Source: a virus
Virus record (IMG/VR): IMGVR_UViG_3300033489_000003
Span: 40,644-104,643 of that record
Length of the DNA stretch: 64,000 bases
Strand: one strand, 5' to 3'
Position 1 is the stretch's first letter, and every line of letters begins with the position of its first letter. The translations under genes were made by a program, and so were the position numbers. The notes beneath the pieces are model-generated. The model made no database searches. It saw only the letters and a program-made list of their open reading frames with translations, and was not told where the DNA came from. Below are positions 13,887-22,854 of this stretch, one piece after another.

Positions 13887-14030
13887 GGAACGCGCGGTTG
13901 CGTGACAACTCCTTCACGAAGCATTGTCTGCCTCGCTACGGCTTCTCGGTTCAACGAGGCGCTTACAGCTCGCCCCTCCCCGATCGCGGTGCCCCCGCGA
14001 TTGTACGTTCTTGGCAGCGTTGACGTCGCG
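13882..14030 (-). ncRNA. Putative TnpB omegaRNA (scaffold ending GTCAC at 13902, guide about 13901-13882); 5' end uncertain
   Basis: GAACCGAGAAGCC...hairpin CGAGGCA-GACAA-TGCTTCG...GGAGTTGTCAC resembles IS605 right ends overlapping the tnpB 3' end. Confidence 0.65.
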
Positions 14031-15107
14031 GTCCAGTACGAGTCCGCAATGCGGACAGTCGTGGACGCGAACGCTTAGGCTCTTGCGAACCGTAGCGCCG
14101 CAACCGCTGCATTCTTGTGATGTGCCGCGTGGTTCCACCTTGATGAACTCGCGTCCGGCGCTTTCAGCCTTGTACGCGAGAATCCTGATGAATTGTGCCC
14201 ATCCGGCGTCGTGAACTTGTTTGGCTAGGCGCATCTGCGCCAAACCTTTGATGCTGAGATTTTCGACGGCGACCGAATCGAAACGGGCGACGATGCCGCG
14301 CGCCGCCTTGTGGTGGAAGTCGAGCCGAGCTCGCCTGACGCGGTCGTGTTGCTTCGCTAGCAACACAACCGCTTTGCGACGCCGACGCGAACCGCGTTTG
14401 CGGCGAGTGACCTTACGGTCAGCCGTTTTGAGCAATTGTAACGCGGACTCGTAGCGCCTTGGATTCTCAACAGTCTCGCCGGTGCTCAGAGCGGCGAAAG
14501 TGGTGACGCCAACGTCGATGCCAACGCTGGCGCCTGTTGCCGTTAGATGTTCGACGCGGACGTTGTCGCACACGAAAGTCACATACCAGTGGCCGTCTCC
14601 GGCGAGCGTGACGCGGACTTGCTTGACCGTGCCTACGATCGGGCGATGCAGCTTAACCTTGACCTTGCCGATGCAAGACAGTTCCACCTTGGTTCCGCCA
14701 GCAACAAGGCGAGCGCCGTTGCGATTTATCGCGTCACGGAACGTGAAAGTGCGGTAGCGCCCACGCCCCTTGAACCGTGGAAACCCAGGAGTCTCGCCGG
14801 CCTTGCAGCGACGGAAGAACGCACGGTAGGCGCGGTCGAGACGCGTGATAGCGTCCTGGAGCAGGTGGACGTGAATGCCAGTGTACTCTGGCCGTACAAC
14901 GCGAACTTCCTTCAGCTCAAGCTGCTGTTGGTACTCGGAAATGGATCGCCCCTGCTTCTTGTAAGCGTCTCTTCGCTCCTGTAGAGCAGCGTTGTATAGT
15001 TCACACAGTAGGCGCATCGTTTCTCGCAAGCGCGCCTCTTGGGCCCGCGTAGGATAGATACGATAGCGATAGGCGCGGATCACAGCGCCATCCTTGACTC
15101 TACTCAT
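13914..15107 (-). CDS. tnpB: TnpB RNA-guided endonuclease (IS200/IS605 family); alternative start GTG 15083
   Basis: RAYRYRIYPT HTH, GFPRFK, RuvC-I GIDVG, RuvC-II VENL, Zn finger CSGC..CPHC, RuvC-III DRDVNAA. Confidence 0.95.
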   Translation of the reverse strand: MSRVKDGAVIRAYRYRIYPTRAQEARLRETMRLLCELYNAALQERRDAYKKQGRSISEYQQQLELKEVRVVRPEYTGIHVHLLQDAITRLDRAYRAFFRRCKAGETPGFPRFKGRGRYRTFTFRDAINRNGARLVAGGTKVELSCIGKVKVKLHRPIVGTVKQVRVTLAGDGHWYVTFVCDNVRVEHLTATGASVGIDVGVTTFAALSTGETVENPRRYESALQLLKTADRKVTRRKRGSRRRRKAVVLLAKQHDRVRRARLDFHHKAARGIVARFDSVAVENLSIKGLAQMRLAKQVHDAGWAQFIRILAYKAESAGREFIKVEPRGTSQECSGCGATVRKSLSVRVHDCPHCGLVLDRDVNAAKNVQSRGHRDRGGASCKRLVEPRSRSEADNAS

Positions 15108-18488: not shown

Positions 18489-18769
18489 CGTGCGCCTCCG
18501 TCTCGGAGTTCGAAGACGCACCCGCAGCCGTCGTAGACGCGATAGATGGCAGACGATGCGCCGCGCTCTCGGCAGCGAGAGACGCAGCCGGCCATGGCGC
18601 CGTCTTGGTAACTAGGGCCGGGGTTGCAGCCGGCGAGGAGTAGCGAGGCGCCGCTAGCCAACACGAATTGGCTTGTTTTGCGCCATTTCACCAGTGCAAA
18701 GGCGCGTAGTATCTCACTTATTCTTTGGCACGCAGACTCCAAGGGTGTGCTTTCCCGCGCAAGCTTCAT
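18485..18769 (-). CDS. Hypothetical lipoprotein-like protein
   Basis: LLLAGC followed by a Cys-rich tail; ATGA overlap with the integrase. Confidence 0.45.
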   Translation of the reverse strand: MKLARESTPLESACQRISEILRAFALVKWRKTSQFVLASGASLLLAGCNPGPSYQDGAMAGCVSRCRERGASSAIYRVYDGCGCVFELRDGGAR

Positions 18770-20235
18770 AGCCGCTCATCTCCCGCGATCTCTTCAGCCG
18801 ATCGCCATTCTACCACCGGATCGCGATCTCGCTCGATTCGTACCGCGTGCGCTAGCTCATGAAGCGCCGCGCGCTGCACCTGTCGGTCGGCCCTTTTCCA
18901 AATCGTCTTGATGTTCTCGATCCGCAAGAGCGCCTCACGCCGAAGACCTGCGTTCTCGAGCGGCGACGGCCTGGCTTGCTGAGCCGCCTTCGACTCCAAC
19001 CGCGTCCGCGCCTCGTCGACCTTGGCCAAGGATGCGACCAGCTCAGCCTTGGTCATTCCCGCGTCTGAGAACGCCTCCAGGAATCGCTCGCGCTTCTTCT
19101 GGAGTCTGACCCGCTCCGCCACGAAGTCGACCGTCTTAGCCGGCTTCTGTGGCTCTGGCCCACGGCCCAACTCGTCGCGCAGTTCCACAAGCCGAGCCAG
19201 CGTCATGTCAGCCACCAATGGGTCGAAGTGTTTGACCTGCATGTAGTGGGACCCTGGGCAGGCGCGATGGCACCGGTAATAGTAAGTGTAGTTCTTGGCG
19301 CCAGTGTAGAAGCCGCCGCCGTAGGATGCGCCAAGCCTTGCTCCGCATCTTCCGCACCGCCCGATCTCACGAAGCAGCCAGTCCTTGGTGCGGGACCCCG
19401 CCTGCGGCGCCGCACCGACGAGGCGCCGAGAATCAAGAGCTGCCTGCGCGCGCGCGAAGACATCCGCGTCGATGAGCGGCTCGTGCATGCCCTTGATCCA
19501 AACGCCGCGCGTATCTTTCGTCTCGCCGAGGTAGATGCGGTGACGCAGCGTCTTGTTGACGAGCTTCTTGTCCCAGCCACGATGACGATAGGTCTTCGTG
19601 AGGTGGTCGAGAATCGTCCCGATGGCCGCGCCGCGGATGCACATCCGGTACATCTCGCGAACGATCGCTGCGCCATCGGCGTCGACGATGAGCACGTTGT
19701 GTTCGAGTCGAGAGACGCCCTTGCGCGGCGGACGCACGTAGCCGATCGGCGCGAGTCCGTCGATGTAGTAGCCGCGATCTCGCAGCAGACGTCTCGTTCC
19801 AACCGTCCGCTCTTTGATGCGCTTGTGTTCTTCCCTGGCGACGAGCACTCGAACGCCGAGCATCGTGTCACCGTCTCGGGTCGACGGGTCGCACCTGTCG
19901 CCGACGGCGTAGAACGAGACGCCAGCCTCAAGCAATCTTCTGATGCTGCCGTATGTGAACTCTGGATCGCGCGACCACCGGTCGAGCTTGTCGCACACGA
20001 CGAGGTCGCCCTTGCGCGCCTCTTTGAGCAGAAGCTGGATCTGCTCTCGCTTTTCGATCCGCTCGTAGACTGCGCTCTCGGCTTCAACATAGAACCGCGT
20101 TACCTTTAGGCCGCGTGCTTTCGCGTACGCCGAGATGGCGTCTTGCTGATCTTGGAGTGACGTTCCCCTTGCTTGATCTTCGCTGGAAACTCTCGCGTAG
20201 CCGAATACTCGGCCGACTGTTCCGGCTCCGGACAT
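18766..20235 (-). CDS. Large serine recombinase (integrase)
   Basis: GYARVSS catalytic Ser, DRWSR, recombinase domain, Zn ribbon CGRCG..YYYRC..C, coiled coil. Confidence 0.93.
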   Translation of the reverse strand: MSGAGTVGRVFGYARVSSEDQARGTSLQDQQDAISAYAKARGLKVTRFYVEAESAVYERIEKREQIQLLLKEARKGDLVVCDKLDRWSRDPEFTYGSIRRLLEAGVSFYAVGDRCDPSTRDGDTMLGVRVLVAREEHKRIKERTVGTRRLLRDRGYYIDGLAPIGYVRPPRKGVSRLEHNVLIVDADGAAIVREMYRMCIRGAAIGTILDHLTKTYRHRGWDKKLVNKTLRHRIYLGETKDTRGVWIKGMHEPLIDADVFARAQAALDSRRLVGAAPQAGSRTKDWLLREIGRCGRCGARLGASYGGGFYTGAKNYTYYYRCHRACPGSHYMQVKHFDPLVADMTLARLVELRDELGRGPEPQKPAKTVDFVAERVRLQKKRERFLEAFSDAGMTKAELVASLAKVDEARTRLESKAAQQARPSPLENAGLRREALLRIENIKTIWKRADRQVQRAALHELAHAVRIERDRDPVVEWRSAEEIAGDERL

Positions 20236-20726: not shown

Positions 20727-20863
20727 TGGGAAGCGGGCAGGACTCGAACCTGCGACCCAAAGATCCGGTAACGATTCTCGGCCGGCCCGTCACCGGGCAA
20801 AGATGTGAGAACCGATATCCCTTGCGGGAATTCTTTTGCTCTACCGACTGAGCTACCGCTTCC
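20727..20863 (-). ncRNA. tRNA-shaped Y-like RNA B (anticodon loop replaced by an insert carrying a Ro-binding-type helix)
   Basis: Acceptor GGAAGCGG/CCGCTTCC; D arm TAGCTCAGTCGGTAGAGC; anticodon stem AAAGA/TCTTT; T arm GCAGG-TTCGAGT-CCTGC; insert contains CTTTGCCCG-GTGA-CGGGCCG. Confidence 0.85.
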
Positions 20864-20876
20864 AAAAAACGAACAG

Positions 20877-20937
20877 CGCGGATAAAGAGGCAGCAGACCG
20901 ATTTCTATTAGCGAGAACAGTCTGCCTGCGACCCGCG
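20877..20937 (-). ncRNA. Minimal Y RNA-like hairpin 2
   Basis: Terminal stem CGCGGGT-C-GCAG / CTTTATCCGCG with a bulged C; inner stem GGCAGACTG/CGGTCTGCT. Confidence 0.75.
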
Positions 20938-20939
20938 TC

Positions 20940-21063
20940 GGGGATCCGTCCCGGAATCGAACCGGGATATCTACCTTAAATGGGTAACGGTCACTCAGCG
21001 GCCCGCGAACGGGCAAAGTACGACTGACCGGTTTTAGCGTCCTGCCTTTAGACGAACGGATCC
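20940..21063 (-). ncRNA. tRNA-shaped Y-like RNA A
   Basis: Acceptor GGATCCGT/ACGGATCC; Glu-like D arm TCGTCTAAAGGCAGGAC; T arm CCCGG-TTCGATT-CCGGG; insert contains CTTTGCCCG-TTCG-CGGGCCG. Confidence 0.85.
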
Positions 21064-21067
21064 ATAA

Positions 21068-21127
21068 GAGCGAATAAGGAGCGCTACCGGAGTCATCCCA
21101 AAGATAACCGGTAACTTCGACTCGCTC
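21068..21127 (-). ncRNA. Minimal Y RNA-like hairpin 1
   Basis: GAGCGAGTCGAAG.../...CCTTATTCGCTC; contains the bacterial Y RNA GNCGAA motif; lies 38 nt after the Ro60 stop. Confidence 0.8.
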
Positions 21128-21134
21128 AACACAC

Positions 21135-21162
21135 ATATTCCCCATTCCTTTCGAATTGTCAA
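21135..21162 (-). promoter_or_regulatory. Candidate promoter for the ncRNA array
   Basis: Perfect TTGACA, 16 nt, weak GAATAT; predicted start falls at the 5' end of hairpin 1. Confidence 0.5.
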
Positions 21163-21165
21163 TAG

Positions 21166-22854
21166 TCAGTTTCGAGCAAAGTCGGCCATGAGGGCCGGCG
21201 CCGCAGAATCGAATCCTACGAAGTCCAACATTCCGGCATCGTTGGGATCGGCGATCGTGAACTCCGTTGCTGTCATGCCAACTACGGCTAGTTTGGCTGG
21301 TCGGCTGAGCTTCTCCCGGTACGCGCGGAGCGCCTGGAATGGATGAATCGTCCCTGCCCAAGTTTCGTTGTCCGTGTAGACCTGGAACATGTCGACCTCG
21401 ATATCGGAGCCGGCTGCGTAGAGCATGGGCAATGCGCAATCGGTTCCGCCCATGGGCAGCTTTGCTATCGCGCGGATGACGTCGTCGAGGCGCTGCTTGG
21501 GGCTGATATCGATCGGCGTGAAACCCGGCGCTCCGCCGCCATGCATGCCACCGTACCCGCGTCCGTTCATCGGTGCCGTAAACCCGAATATGTGCCAGTT
21601 TTTCTCTGTGCGAGCAGTCACCATTGCCATCGCTGCGCTGGCCACGCGCGGCGTGAGACCAGGGCAGCCAGCGATTGCGCCGCTTTCCATAGACCCTGAG
21701 ACATCAAGGCCGATCAGGATGTTCTTGCCCGTCGGCTCCACCGCCTGAAACGCCAGGTAGAACGCTTCGTCGAGCGCGTCGACAATCTCCCGCGCTGGAG
21801 CCCAGGTGAGCTTGCCCTTATCCCCGTGGCCTTGCTGATAGACGCGCAGCGCCGACAGGAGCGCGATCGGGTGAACGCGCGCCTTCTTGATCCTGTCGGC
21901 GTCGGCGATCATGCCGGCCGCCAGCTTGACGTGCTCGCCCATCGGCTTGAAGAGCCCGACTGCCGTCATCTTCGCGAGGTTGCGGACCAGCGCCGTCTGC
22001 GGCATCTCTTCGAGCAGCGCTTCCCACACGTCCACCGAGTTCTTGTGCTCTGTCGGGATCATCTCGTGGGTGAATCGATGTTGCCGGATGAGCTTCGCGG
22101 TCGTCTTCGGATCCGGCGACGCCTTGAGCTCATCGTACGCGGCGAGAAGTGCTGGCAACGCTTCCAGCCTGCTCGGGTACTGGACTGCGCGCTCTTCCTT
22201 TCCGGCCATGCGCTTCATGCCGCGCTCGCCCATCGGGGCGCCTACGCACCAACGGAACGCGGCGTCATGCTGCGGCGTGGGCGCCTTCGGATGCGATAGA
22301 CGCAGCACGTCACGATGGGCCCAACCGTAGCGCTGTTGATACTTGAGCAGCTGCTGAGCGAGCCTGTCGGGCTCCTTCGCGGTGTACCACCGAGCAACCG
22401 CCGAGCGCAGACCTCGCCCCCACTTGCGGAAGTTCTCCACGTCACGAACGAAGTGGAACAGGTGGGTGCCGATGCGGCAGACTTTCGGGAGAGCAGCAAG
22501 CGCAATAGCCCTTGTTTCCGGCCTGCTATCAGCGGCCGCCATCGCGAGCGCGAAGATCGCCGGGTCGTTCTTGGGCGCGCGACCGGCGTCGGAAATCTCG
22601 ACGATCCGAGCGACCGTGCGCGCCCCGTCTTCTGCGAGGCAGTCGAGGACGACTTGCGCGTTGTCGCGCGTGAGCGCCCGCTCAGAGGCGTAGTAGGTCC
22701 CGCCGTCAGCGCCCAAGATGAGCCAGCGATCAAGCCGCGCCCACTTGTCGAGCGTGAACGCGAAGCCCCCAGCGGAGTTCTTCTTCTGGTCGCTCCGCGC
22801 AGACTCCGACTGCGGCGTCTTCAGCGTGGAAAAGTGTTGCCCATAGTTCGACAT
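21166..22854 (-). CDS. rsr: Ro60/Rsr ortholog (TROVE + vWA RNA-binding protein)
   Basis: AGGAG RBS; NSAGGF, LILG..GGTYY, GWAHRDVLRLSHPK, ALVRNLAKMT, VHP, MIDAS DVSGSM, GGTDC, TDNETW, IADP.D.GMLD.VGFD. Confidence 0.95.
   Translation of the reverse strand: MSNYGQHFSTLKTPQSESARSDQKKNSAGGFAFTLDKWARLDRWLILGADGGTYYASERALTRDNAQVVLDCLAEDGARTVARIVEISDAGRAPKNDPAIFALAMAAADSRPETRAIALAALPKVCRIGTHLFHFVRDVENFRKWGRGLRSAVARWYTAKEPDRLAQQLLKYQQRYGWAHRDVLRLSHPKAPTPQHDAAFRWCVGAPMGERGMKRMAGKEERAVQYPSRLEALPALLAAYDELKASPDPKTTAKLIRQHRFTHEMIPTEHKNSVDVWEALLEEMPQTALVRNLAKMTAVGLFKPMGEHVKLAAGMIADADRIKKARVHPIALLSALRVYQQGHGDKGKLTWAPAREIVDALDEAFYLAFQAVEPTGKNILIGLDVSGSMESGAIAGCPGLTPRVASAAMAMVTARTEKNWHIFGFTAPMNGRGYGGMHGGGAPGFTPIDISPKQRLDDVIRAIAKLPMGGTDCALPMLYAAGSDIEVDMFQVYTDNETWAGTIHPFQALRAYREKLSRPAKLAVVGMTATEFTIADPNDAGMLDFVGFDSAAPALMADFARN

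What the first reader, a model, noticed from the sequence alone, without database searches (positions are those of the whole stretch)
20727..21063. Both tRNA-like RNAs have an 8-bp acceptor stem with G-1:C73, the tRNA-His identity element
Seen: counting from U8, both RNAs have an extra 5' G pairing with a C discriminator (GGAAGCGG/CCGCTTCC and GGATCCGT/ACGGATCC), although the stems are otherwise unrelated. Neither encodes a full CCA after C73 (CA and CCG follow). Known: G-1:C73 is the main determinant for bacterial HisRS and shifts RNase P cleavage to -1. Inference: these anticodon-less RNAs could be histidylated, or could use the extra pair to control processing.
Basis: partly seen in the sequence, partly recalled or inferred. 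Interest (0 to 1): 0.7.

Follow-up and report, generated by a model that had tools for sequence, protein, structure and literature searches.

The report
Phage Y RNAs with histidine-tRNA-type ends
Two tRNA-shaped partner RNAs of a phage Ro60 protein carry the extra G:C end pair that otherwise marks histidine tRNA; 35 of 85 related RNAs carry it too, so it looks selected, probably fixing where the 5' end is cut and possibly allowing loading with histidine.

Summary
On the minus strand, RNA1 (21063-20942) and RNA2 (20863-20729) each have a 7-bp acceptor stem plus a G-1:C73 pair. Neither encodes CCA.

They are not tRNAs. They lie just downstream of a phage Ro60/Rsr gene, and a hairpin-closed Ro60-binding helix replaces the anticodon loop. 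They are Y RNAs in tRNA gene order. This scan noted that layout before, on cyanobacterial DNA, but did not examine the -1:73 pair.

I collected 85 unique homologs from phages and at least five bacterial phyla. G-1:C73 occurs in 35 of them (41%), against 1 of 240 ordinary non-His tRNA genes in the same loci. C73 comes with G-1 in 35 of 36 cases.

In this G:C class the leader is shifted by one base (A-3, U/C-2, G-1), exactly as in the tRNA-His genes of the same loci. These are the published determinants that move RNase P cleavage to -2/-1.

Outside the C73 class the -1:73 pair is no more frequent than chance, so there is no general 8-bp rule.

The best reading is a selected tRNA-His-type end set by RNase P. 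Histidylation is plausible but untested, and it cannot be a family-wide function.

The parts
21166..22854 (-). rsr: Ro60/Rsr ortholog. The open frame runs back to 22908; the database copy is 562 aa.
   Evidence: Pfam TROVE (6.8e-48) and vWA_Ro60 (2e-59). It is 61-65% identical to Polyangiaceae Rsr proteins and 48% to the Ro-like protein of cluster C mycobacteriophages.
21134..21162 (-). Promoter-like TTGACA-N17-AATATG directly after the rsr stop codon, in front of the RNA array
   Evidence: Read from the sequence. It falls below the consensus scanner's threshold, so it is only a lead.
21078..21127 (-). Plain Y-RNA-like hairpin 1 (GAGCG-AGUCGAAG-UUACCGGUUAUC...GCGCUC)
   Evidence: It contains GUCGAAG, which matches the GNCGAAN0-1G Rsr-binding motif of Chen et al. 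2014, and GGUUAUC.
20942..21063 (-). RNA1, a Y RNA in tRNA gene order. G-1 21063; acceptor 5' strand 21062-21056; D arm 21053-21039; Ro-helix hairpin CUUUGCCCG-UUCG-CGGGCCG 21018-20999; GUUACC 20988-20983; T arm 20966-20950; acceptor 3' strand 20949-20943; C73 20942.
   Evidence: ARAGORN intron mode gives c[20940,21062]. The 8-bp closing helix is in the minimum-free-energy fold (z = -3.15).
20940..20941 (-). C74 C75 after RNA1: a partial CCA, followed by G
20877..20937 (-). Plain Y-RNA-like hairpin 2 (CGCGGGUCGCAGGCAGAC...GUCUGCUGCCUCUUUAUCCGCG), followed by a U run that ends at RNA2's G-1
   Evidence: Read from the sequence. The Y-RNA assignment is tentative.
20729..20863 (-). RNA2, a Y RNA in tRNA gene order. 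G-1 20863; acceptor 5' strand 20862-20856; D arm 20853-20838; extra GNRA hairpin 20828-20819; Ro-helix hairpin CUUUGCCCG-GUGA-CGGGCCG 20802-20783; GUUACC 20772-20767; T arm 20753-20737; acceptor 3' strand 20736-20730; C73 20729.
   Evidence: Rfam tRNA 53.4 bits with a 65-nt insert in the anticodon loop. The fold has an 8-bp closing helix. Coordinates.
20727..20728 (-). C74 A75 after RNA2: no encoded CCA

Best explanation
RNA1 and RNA2 are Y RNAs, the RNA partners of the phage's Ro60/Rsr protein. Each is built on a complete tRNA body. A hairpin-closed Ro60-binding helix with a bulged C, plus a GUUAYC motif, replaces the anticodon loop.

The G-1:C73 pair is a selected element carried by about 40% of this RNA family. 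Together with U-2, it most likely makes host RNase P cut one nucleotide upstream of the normal site, between -2 and -1, as it does for bacterial tRNA-His. The mature RNA would then keep G-1 and have an 8-bp acceptor helix with a fully paired 5' end. After 3' trimming and completion of the encoded C74 by the CCA-adding enzyme, it would carry a 3-nt CCA overhang, which is a tRNA-His-type end.

Shown here: the anatomy, the linkage to rsr, and the family-wide enrichment of the pair together with its leader signature. Inferred: the RNase P cleavage site and the CCA completion. Open: whether this end serves stability, exclusion of other synthetases, or charging by HisRS.
For: (1) Identity as Y RNAs.
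- They lie directly downstream of rsr on the same strand.
- The insert CUUUGCCCG-loop-CGGG(C)CG-N10-GUUAYC is the 3' strand, a loop and the 5' strand of the Y/sbRNA Ro-binding helix. Compare the consensus of Rfam RF01656, CGGUCCGG...GGGUUAUC...CUUGACCG.
- Plain Y RNAs beside homologs pass RF01656's gathering score (L086 48.7 bits, L045 39.5 bits).
- In 80 viral loci retrieved through Rsr alone, all 27 such RNAs are on the rsr strand.
- rsr is adjacent in four cellular genomes.

(2) Enrichment.
- G-1:C73 occurs in 35 of 85 unique homologs: 27/63 retrieved by pattern and 8/22 retrieved through Rsr. Among non-His tRNA genes in the same loci it occurs in 1 of 240 (Fisher P = 2e-22). C73 has G-1 in 35 of 36 cases.
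- The G:C class has 29 different acceptor 7-mers, 34 clusters at 85% identity, and 19 pure plus 6 mixed clusters at 75%.
- Its bodies are not tRNA-His-like: His is the best match for 1 of 35.

(3) Processing signature.
- In the G:C class, -2 is a pyrimidine in 35/35 (U in 27) and -3 is A in 21/35.
- In the other class, -1 is a pyrimidine in 43/50 and -2 in only 23/50 (Fisher P = 1e-8).
- tRNA-His genes in these loci have the same A-U-G leader.
- PMC5499578 names U-2, G-1 and C73 as the determinants of -2/-1 cleavage by bacterial RNase P. RNA1 (..uaU-G-G) and RNA2 (..uuU-G-G) have all three.

(4) tRNA-type 3' ends.
- C74 is present in 52/85 (61%).
- CCA is encoded at 74-76 in 8/85 (P = 6e-5).
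- M. smegmatis YrlA is cut by RNase P and receives CA onto an encoded C (PMC4201824).

(5) The 104.6-kb phage genome has no ordinary tRNA gene, so processing must use host enzymes.
Against: No transcript, 5'/3' end or binding data exist. No RNA run holds this DNA, so the cleavage site is inferred only from sequence rules established mainly in E. coli.

Fifty-nine percent of homologs lack the pair, and the apparent ortholog of RNA1 in L024 has G.G and a weakened T stem. The element is therefore dispensable for Y-RNA function as such.

Four G:C-class members have N-CCA after C73, which fits an 8-bp stem plus a separate discriminator (tRNA-Sec-like) rather than the His register.

My homolog set was retrieved partly by an exact core motif and parsed with my own rule-based scanner. 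Its register was checked against the Rfam tRNA model in only about 14 cases.

The host is inferred, not known, so its RNase P and HisRS rules are assumed to be the common bacterial ones.
Confidence: 0.6

Rival explanations
1. Charging is the point. The G-1:C73 class of Y RNAs is matured like tRNA-His and then histidylated by host HisRS. This would protect the 3' end, titrate HisRS, or signal amino-acid status.
For: The -1:73 pair is the major HisRS determinant. The anticodon is a weak determinant, and mini- and microhelices and transplanted tRNAs are charged (PMC4357726). Loss of G-1 lowers charging more than 100-fold (PMC5499578). The exact His-type pair is what is enriched: G:C 35/85, never G:U, and C73 with G-1 in 35/36. 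When CCA is encoded in the G:C class, it directly follows C73 in 5 of 9 cases. Chen et al. raised possible aminoacylation of RNase P-cut M. smegmatis YrlA.
Against: Nothing here tests charging. There is no anticodon and no encoded CCA in the window. Fifty-nine percent of family members, and whole arrays such as L003 and Chondromyces L088, lack the pair. All the comparative signals are equally explained by RNase P site selection alone.
Confidence: 0.2
2. Helix length is the point. Any 8th pair is selected to give a 13-bp acceptor/T helix (tRNA-Sec-like) that keeps the mimic away from EF-Tu and from most synthetases. G:C is just the strongest solution.
For: Overall, 65/85 RNAs can pair -1 with 73, while -2:74 pairs only at background level: 15/49 (31%) and 22/70 (31%) in the pattern-retrieved sets. 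Four G:C-class members have N-CCA after the pair, that is 8 bp plus a discriminator. E. coli tRNA-Sec also gets its 8-bp stem through a G:C pair and shifted RNase P cleavage (PMC5499578).
Against: Outside the C73 class there is no covariation: 30/49 are pairable against 27.3 expected from column shuffles (P = 0.18). Ordinary tRNA genes are equally 'pairable' (87/166 against 91 expected), because U-1 and A73/G73 are simply common. A:U and G:U are rare or absent.
Confidence: 0.1
3. There is no function. The pair is a chance coincidence in this phage, or a decaying relic of a tRNA-His ancestor of the scaffold.
For: The pair is absent in most homologs. The two window RNAs could each have inherited it.
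Against: The pair occurs in 35/85 homologs against 1/240 tRNA genes. It is kept across 29 different acceptor stems and bodies that are not tRNA-His-like (1/35). C73 and G-1 almost never occur alone (1 and 3 cases), which neutral decay would produce. The leader signature co-varies with it.
Confidence: 0.05

Closest known systems
Bacterial tRNA-His acceptor end (encoded G-1:C73, RNase P cleavage at -2/-1, HisRS identity)
   Same: G-1, C73, U at -2, A at -3 and C74 are all present, and the leader is the same as in the tRNA-His genes of comparable loci. The result would be an 8-bp helix stacked on a 5-bp T stem with a standard T loop.
   Different: There is no anticodon loop or GUG anticodon; a Ro60-binding hairpin takes its place. 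CCA is not encoded. The body is not tRNA-His-like. The gene sits in an rsr-linked non-coding RNA array. Processing and charging have not been shown.
YrlA, the bacterial Y RNA with a tRNA-like domain (Rfam RF02553; Chen et al. 2014, PMC4201824; Wang et al. 2018, 10.1101/312249)
   Same: Both are encoded next to rsr on the same strand. Both have tRNA-like D and T arms; RNA2's UAGCUCAGUCGGUAGAGC and GCAGGUUCGAGUCCUGC match the YrlA consensus arms. Both have a YUAY/GUUAYC element before the variable region and a Ro-binding module.
   Different: YrlA is circularly permuted (T arm, closed acceptor hairpin, D arm), with the 5' and 3' ends in the Ro-binding stem, and it lacks a free CCA end. Here the acceptor stem is open and the Ro helix is closed by a tetraloop. 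RF02553 gives no hit in the window.
M. smegmatis YrlA after processing (RNase P cleavage in the acceptor loop, CA added to an encoded C)
   Same: [quoted passage not shown] It ends in a tRNA-type acceptor with a partly encoded CCA, as inferred here.
   Different: It becomes a two-piece RNA. Here a one-piece RNA is expected. I found no report of a -1:73 G:C pair or a shifted cleavage site.
E. coli tRNA-Sec (8-bp acceptor stem made by shifted RNase P cleavage)
   Same: An extra G:C pair gives an 8/5 acceptor/T helix by the same RNase P mechanism (PMC5499578).
   Different: tRNA-Sec has a separate discriminator, a 6-bp D stem and a long variable arm. Only 4 of 35 G:C-class Y RNAs show the N-CCA register, and the window RNAs do not.
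Aminoacylatable tRNA mimics: tmRNA (Ala) and plant-virus tRNA-like structures, including the histidine-accepting TMV type (the TMV example is from my own knowledge, not checked here)
   Same: These are tRNA-shaped RNAs without decoding function that use a synthetase identity element at the acceptor end.
   Different: For those RNAs charging has been demonstrated. Here it is only a possibility. The partner protein is Ro60, not SmpB or replication factors.

Membership tests
tRNA-His identity set (bacterial) | Genome-encoded G at -1 | tested here: met
   G at 21063 and at 20863. The register is fixed by the T arm, by the Rfam tRNA model and by ARAGORN.
tRNA-His identity set (bacterial) | C73 pairing with G-1 | tested here: met
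   C at 20942 and at 20729. 8-bp helices appear in the folds.
tRNA-His identity set (bacterial) | RNase P determinants for -2/-1 cleavage (U-2, G-1, C73) | tested here: met
   U-2 is present in both RNAs. Family-wide, -2 is a pyrimidine in 35/35 of the G:C class. The determinants are as listed in PMC5499578. Actual cleavage was not tested.
tRNA-His identity set (bacterial) | GUG anticodon in a 7-nt loop | tested here: not met
   The anticodon loop is replaced by inserts of about 45 nt (RNA1) and 61-65 nt (RNA2) by ARAGORN and Rfam.
tRNA-His identity set (bacterial) | 3' CCA and charging by HisRS | not testable with these tools
   Only C74C75 (RNA1) or C74 (RNA2) are encoded. No RNA data exist.
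Y RNA (Ro60/Rsr partner) | Encoded beside rsr, same strand | tested here: met
   The RNAs start 103 and 303 nt after the rsr stop codon. In loci retrieved through Rsr, 27/27 homologs are on the rsr strand.
Y RNA (Ro60/Rsr partner) | Conserved Ro-binding helix with a bulged C (GGUCCG / UUGACC type) | tested here: met
   GGG(C)CG pairs with UUUGCCC in both RNAs and is invariant across homologs. It matches the RF01656 consensus helix. Here the helix is hairpin-closed.
Y RNA (Ro60/Rsr partner) | Physical binding to Ro60/Rsr | not testable with these tools
YrlA (Rfam RF02553) | Score at or above the gathering threshold (69 bits) | tested here: not met
   No RF02553 hit in the window, even at E <= 10.
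YrlA (Rfam RF02553) | Permuted order (T arm, closed acceptor hairpin, D arm) with the ends in the Ro stem | tested here: not met
   The order here is acceptor 5' strand, D arm, Ro hairpin, T arm, acceptor 3' strand.
tRNA (Rfam RF00005) | Cloverleaf with a decoding anticodon arm | tested here: not met
   RNA2 passes the score threshold (53.4 bits) only by treating 65 nt as an insert. RNA1 is not reported by Rfam. Neither has an anticodon loop.

The most novel reading that the evidence does not exclude
A large subclass of bacterial and phage Y RNAs is matured exactly like tRNA-His and is charged with histidine by HisRS in vivo. This would make it an aminoacylated Ro60-bound RNA, linking the Ro60 RNA-surveillance particle to a synthetase or to amino-acid status, or using the aminoacyl end as a protective cap.
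Probability: 0.18. Interest if true: 0.85.

Novelty: new variant of a known kind. Interest (0 to 1): 0.62.

Why it matters
Bacterial Y RNAs are known tRNA mimics, but the described ones (YrlA) have a closed acceptor end, and what the tRNA-like module does is unknown. Here the mimic has an open acceptor end. In 35 of 85 cases it also carries the one acceptor-end signature that is otherwise reserved for tRNA-His, together with the matching RNase P leader.

This gives a concrete, cheap set of experiments: RNase P cleavage mapping, CCA addition and HisRS charging. These could show what the tRNA module is for. It also shows that a synthetase identity element and RNase P site-selection signal has been recruited outside translation in phages and in at least five bacterial phyla.

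For annotation, these genes are easily miscalled as intron-containing tRNAs.

Tried and rejected
- **General 8-bp rule.** My first reading was a conserved 8th pair with covariation (40/49). I dropped it after the control on real tRNA genes. U-1 with A73/G73 is common there without covariation, and the non-C73 Y RNAs show none either.
- **tRNA-His ancestry of the scaffold.** Only 1 of 35 G:C-class bodies is closest to tRNA-His.
- **Intron-containing tRNA.** Rejected: there is no anticodon context, the insert is the conserved Ro helix, and the genes are linked to rsr.
- **Covariance model.** The MAFFT alignment of 10 homologs mis-registered the 5' halves, so I built no model and used a T-arm-anchored scanner instead. 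I checked it against Rfam tRNA coordinates.
- **ARAGORN coordinates used directly.** In intron mode it sometimes starts at -1, giving false registers, so these were not used for counts.
- **Searches that found nothing.** ARAGORN in default mode found no tRNA in the window. The genome-wide Rfam tRNA search found nothing in the phage. blastn of the RNAs against GenBank phages gave no match. The single-protein Rsr scan of viral contigs gave nothing.
- **Sequencing runs.** No RNA holder is listed, so I laid no reads.
- **Cyanobacterial rsr loci** had flanks too short, or motifs too different, to add usable cases.
- **The Annual Review on bacterial Ro60** (PMC10870794) is not held, so my statement that this layout and this pair are undescribed rests on the few papers I could read.

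Full report
**What is in the sequence**

The finding lies on the minus strand. RNA1 runs from 21063 to 20942 and RNA2 from 20863 to 20729. Both have:
- a 7-bp acceptor stem (GAUCCGU/ACGGAUC and GAAGCGG/CCGCUUC);
- U8;
- a D arm with G18G19;
- a 5-bp T stem with a UUCGAnU loop;
- no spacer between the T stem and the acceptor 3' strand.

In both RNAs the base before +1 is G and position 73 is C. Position -2 is U and cannot pair with C74, so the closing helix is exactly 8 bp. C73 is followed by CCG in RNA1 and by CACA in RNA2, so CCA is not encoded.

The register does not rest on my eye alone:
- The Rfam tRNA model aligns RNA2 end to end (20862-20729, 53.4 bits) with a 65-nt insert in the anticodon loop.
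- ARAGORN, when allowed introns, places +1 at 20862 and 21062.
- The minimum-free-energy folds contain the 8-bp helices.

**What the RNAs are**

The open frame immediately upstream on the same strand (21166-22854) is a Ro60/Rsr ortholog with TROVE and Ro60-vWA domains. The window is part of a 104.6-kb virus record rated complete. The closest Rsr proteins, at 61-65% identity, are from Polyangiaceae, so the host is probably a myxobacterium.

The two inserts share CUUUGCCCG-tetraloop-CGGGCCG-N10-GUUACC. A scan of viral contigs for that core found the same insert inside other tRNA-shaped genes, again next to rsr.

In one such locus (L031) the neighbouring small RNAs hit Rfam RF01656, the nematode stem-bulge (Y RNA) family. 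Its consensus is 5' CGGUCCGG...GGGUUAUC...CUUGACCG 3'. Read against that consensus, the insert is the Y-RNA Ro60-binding helix with its bulged C. The ends are closed by a loop: UUUGCCC is the 3' strand, GGG(C)CG is the 5' strand, and the GUUAYC motif follows.

RNA1 and RNA2 are therefore Y RNAs on a tRNA body in normal tRNA order. The described YrlA RNAs are the circular permutation of this layout. In them the acceptor is closed and the ends lie in the Ro stem, and they 'lack a free CCA end' (PMC4201824; 10.1101/312249). The Rfam YrlA model does not hit the window.

I reached this reading before consulting the scan's notes. Those notes show the same reading for this window, and for cyanobacterial loci seen earlier. 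None of them looked at the -1:73 pair.

**Is G-1:C73 more than chance? The homolog set**

I collected homologs in two ways:
- an exact core pattern in viral, metagenome and genome collections;
- independently, 80 viral loci retrieved only through their Rsr protein.

A scanner found the RNAs by three anchors: the Ro motif, a 5-7-5 T arm, and a perfectly complementary 7-nt 5' strand. Its coordinates equal those of the Rfam tRNA model wherever both exist, about 14 cases.

After removing duplicates there are 85 unique RNAs from 58 loci. They form 80 clusters at 85% identity and 53 at 75%. They come from phages and from Myxococcota, Abditibacteriota, Armatimonadota, Planctomycetota, Gemmatimonadota and Chloroflexota genomes. 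rsr adjacency was confirmed in four cellular genomes. In the Rsr-anchored set all 27 RNAs lie on the rsr strand.

**First reading, and why I dropped it**

In the first 49 RNAs, -1 could pair with 73 in 40, with G:C, U:A, U:G and C:G. Positions -2:74 and -3:75 paired at chance level. That looked like a conserved 8th pair with covariation and argued against histidine identity.

The control reversed this. In ordinary non-His tRNA genes of the same loci, -1:73 is 'pairable' in 87 of 166. That equals the shuffled expectation of 91, simply because U-1 and A73/G73 are common. Within the Y RNAs that do not have C73, pairing is also at expectation: 30 of 49 observed against 27.3 expected (P = 0.18). 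There is no general 8-bp rule.

**What is really enriched**

The exact tRNA-His pair is what stands out.

| Set | G-1:C73 |
|---|---|
| Y RNAs, all | 35 of 85 (41%) |
| Y RNAs, pattern-retrieved | 27 of 63 |
| Y RNAs, Rsr-retrieved | 8 of 22 |
| Non-His tRNA genes, same loci | 1 of 240 |
| tRNA-His genes, same loci | 5 of 7 |

The Fisher test for Y RNAs against non-His tRNA genes gives P = 2e-22.

Further points:
- C73 occurs 36 times, 35 of them with G-1. G-1 occurs 38 times, 35 of them with C73.
- The 35 RNAs have 29 different acceptor stems.
- They fall into many clusters, some of which mix G:C with other states. L050 has U:A and L064 has G:C on the same GGCGACG stem.
- Their D/T bodies are not tRNA-His-like: His is the best match in 1 of 35.
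- Fourteen of 19 arrays with two or more such RNAs contain at least one G:C member.

A neutral relic or a coincidence would not look like this.

**The processing signature**

In the G:C class, position -2 is a pyrimidine in 35 of 35 (U in 27) and -3 is A in 21. In the other class the pyrimidine sits at -1 (43 of 50), A is the commonest base at -2 (20 of 50), and -2 is a pyrimidine in only 23 of 50 (Fisher P = 1e-8).

The leader pattern is therefore displaced by exactly one nucleotide. It is identical to that of the tRNA-His genes in these loci, where the leader is A-U-G in four of seven.

Published work on E. coli RNase P states that U-2 and G-1 are positive determinants for cleavage at -2/-1. 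G-1 and C73 are negative determinants for the canonical site. The pair prevents C73 from contacting the L15 loop. tRNA-His and tRNA-Sec obtain their 8-bp stems in this way (PMC5499578).

RNA1 (..uaU-G-GAUCCGU) and RNA2 (..uuU-G-GAAGCGG) carry all of these determinants. The most economical inference is that host RNase P leaves G-1 on these Y RNAs.

**The 3' end**

On the 3' side, C74 is present in 52 of 85 Y RNAs (61%) and in 232 of 240 real tRNA genes here. CCA is encoded at 74-76 in 8 of 85 (P = 6e-5).

M. smegmatis YrlA is known to be cut by RNase P and to receive CA onto an encoded C. These facts support tRNA-type 3' maturation.

The phage has no ordinary tRNA gene, so host enzymes must do this work.

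**What the end is for**

This step is not shown. HisRS relies mainly on the -1:73 pair and the 5' phosphate of G-1. The anticodon is a weak determinant, and mini- and microhelices are fair substrates (PMC4357726).

Against histidylation as the selected role:
- 59% of the family lacks the pair.
- So do whole arrays, namely L003 and Chondromyces L088.
- So does the apparent ortholog of RNA1 in L024.

Four G:C-class members have N-CCA after the pair, which is the tRNA-Sec-like register. That hints that helix length may matter in some lineages.

My odds:

| Reading | Odds |
|---|---|
| A selected tRNA-His-type end produced by shifted RNase P cleavage, purpose open | about 0.6 |
| Histidylation as the purpose | about 0.2 |
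| Helix length as such | about 0.1 |
| Chance or relic | about 0.05 |

**Novelty**

In the papers I could read, Y RNAs in tRNA order are not described, and neither is a -1:73 G:C pair in any Y RNA. The 2020 Annual Review was not available.

The layout itself was already noted several times by this scan. What is new here is the family-wide tRNA-His-type acceptor end with its RNase P leader. I class it as a new variant of a known kind (Y RNA tRNA mimics).

**Limits**

- There are no RNA data.
- Part of the sample was retrieved by an exact motif.
- Relatedness among sequences was handled only by clustering.

Noticed in passing
window 21078-21127 (-) and 20877-20937 (-): Two plain hairpin RNAs alternate with the tRNA-shaped ones. 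The first carries GUCGAAG (the GNCGAAN0-1G Rsr motif of Chen 2014) and GGUUAUC. RNase P cuts at RNA1 and RNA2 would also create the 3' ends of these hairpins. The second is followed by a run of six U that ends exactly at RNA2's G-1.
   Followed up: partly
window 21134-21162 (-): TTGACA-N17-AATATG directly after the rsr stop codon could be a separate promoter for the RNA array. It falls below the consensus scanner's threshold.
   Followed up: no
whole phage genome (G000, 104,643 bp): There are no ordinary tRNA or tmRNA genes. The only tRNA-like genes are the two Y RNAs.
   Followed up: yes
L031:1900-2520 (-), upstream of rsr: One array holds all three Y-RNA layouts side by side: plain Y hairpins (RF01656 hits), two tRNA-order Y RNAs, and a permuted YrlA-like RNA (RF02553, 37 bits).
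   Followed up: partly
L040, L041, L043, L044, L053, L065 and others: Many tRNA-order Y RNAs sit inside phage tRNA gene clusters. ARAGORN in intron mode calls them intron-containing tRNAs of arbitrary isotype, including 'SeC', 'Pyl' and 'Stop', which is an annotation trap.
   Followed up: partly
240 non-His tRNA genes in loci L001-L169: C74 is encoded in 232 of 240 tRNA genes. In the first 166 examined, full CCA was encoded in only 37. U-1 is the commonest leader base (136/240).
   Followed up: no
L057:7477, L072:3549, L077:3471, L132:3359: Four G-1:C73 Y RNAs have A/G-CCA after C73. This is an 8-bp stem plus a separate discriminator plus encoded CCA, a tRNA-Sec-like register. It never occurs in the non-G:C class.
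   Followed up: partly
L024:9122-9250 (+): The apparent ortholog of RNA1 in a related phage has a G.G at -1:73, a U.C at 1:72 and a G.A at the T-stem closing pair. It may be a decaying copy.
   Followed up: no
window 18766-20235 (-) and 13914-15107 (-): A large serine recombinase lies just downstream of the RNA array, and a TnpB (OrfB_IS605/Cas12f-like) gene further on, both on the same strand.
   Followed up: no
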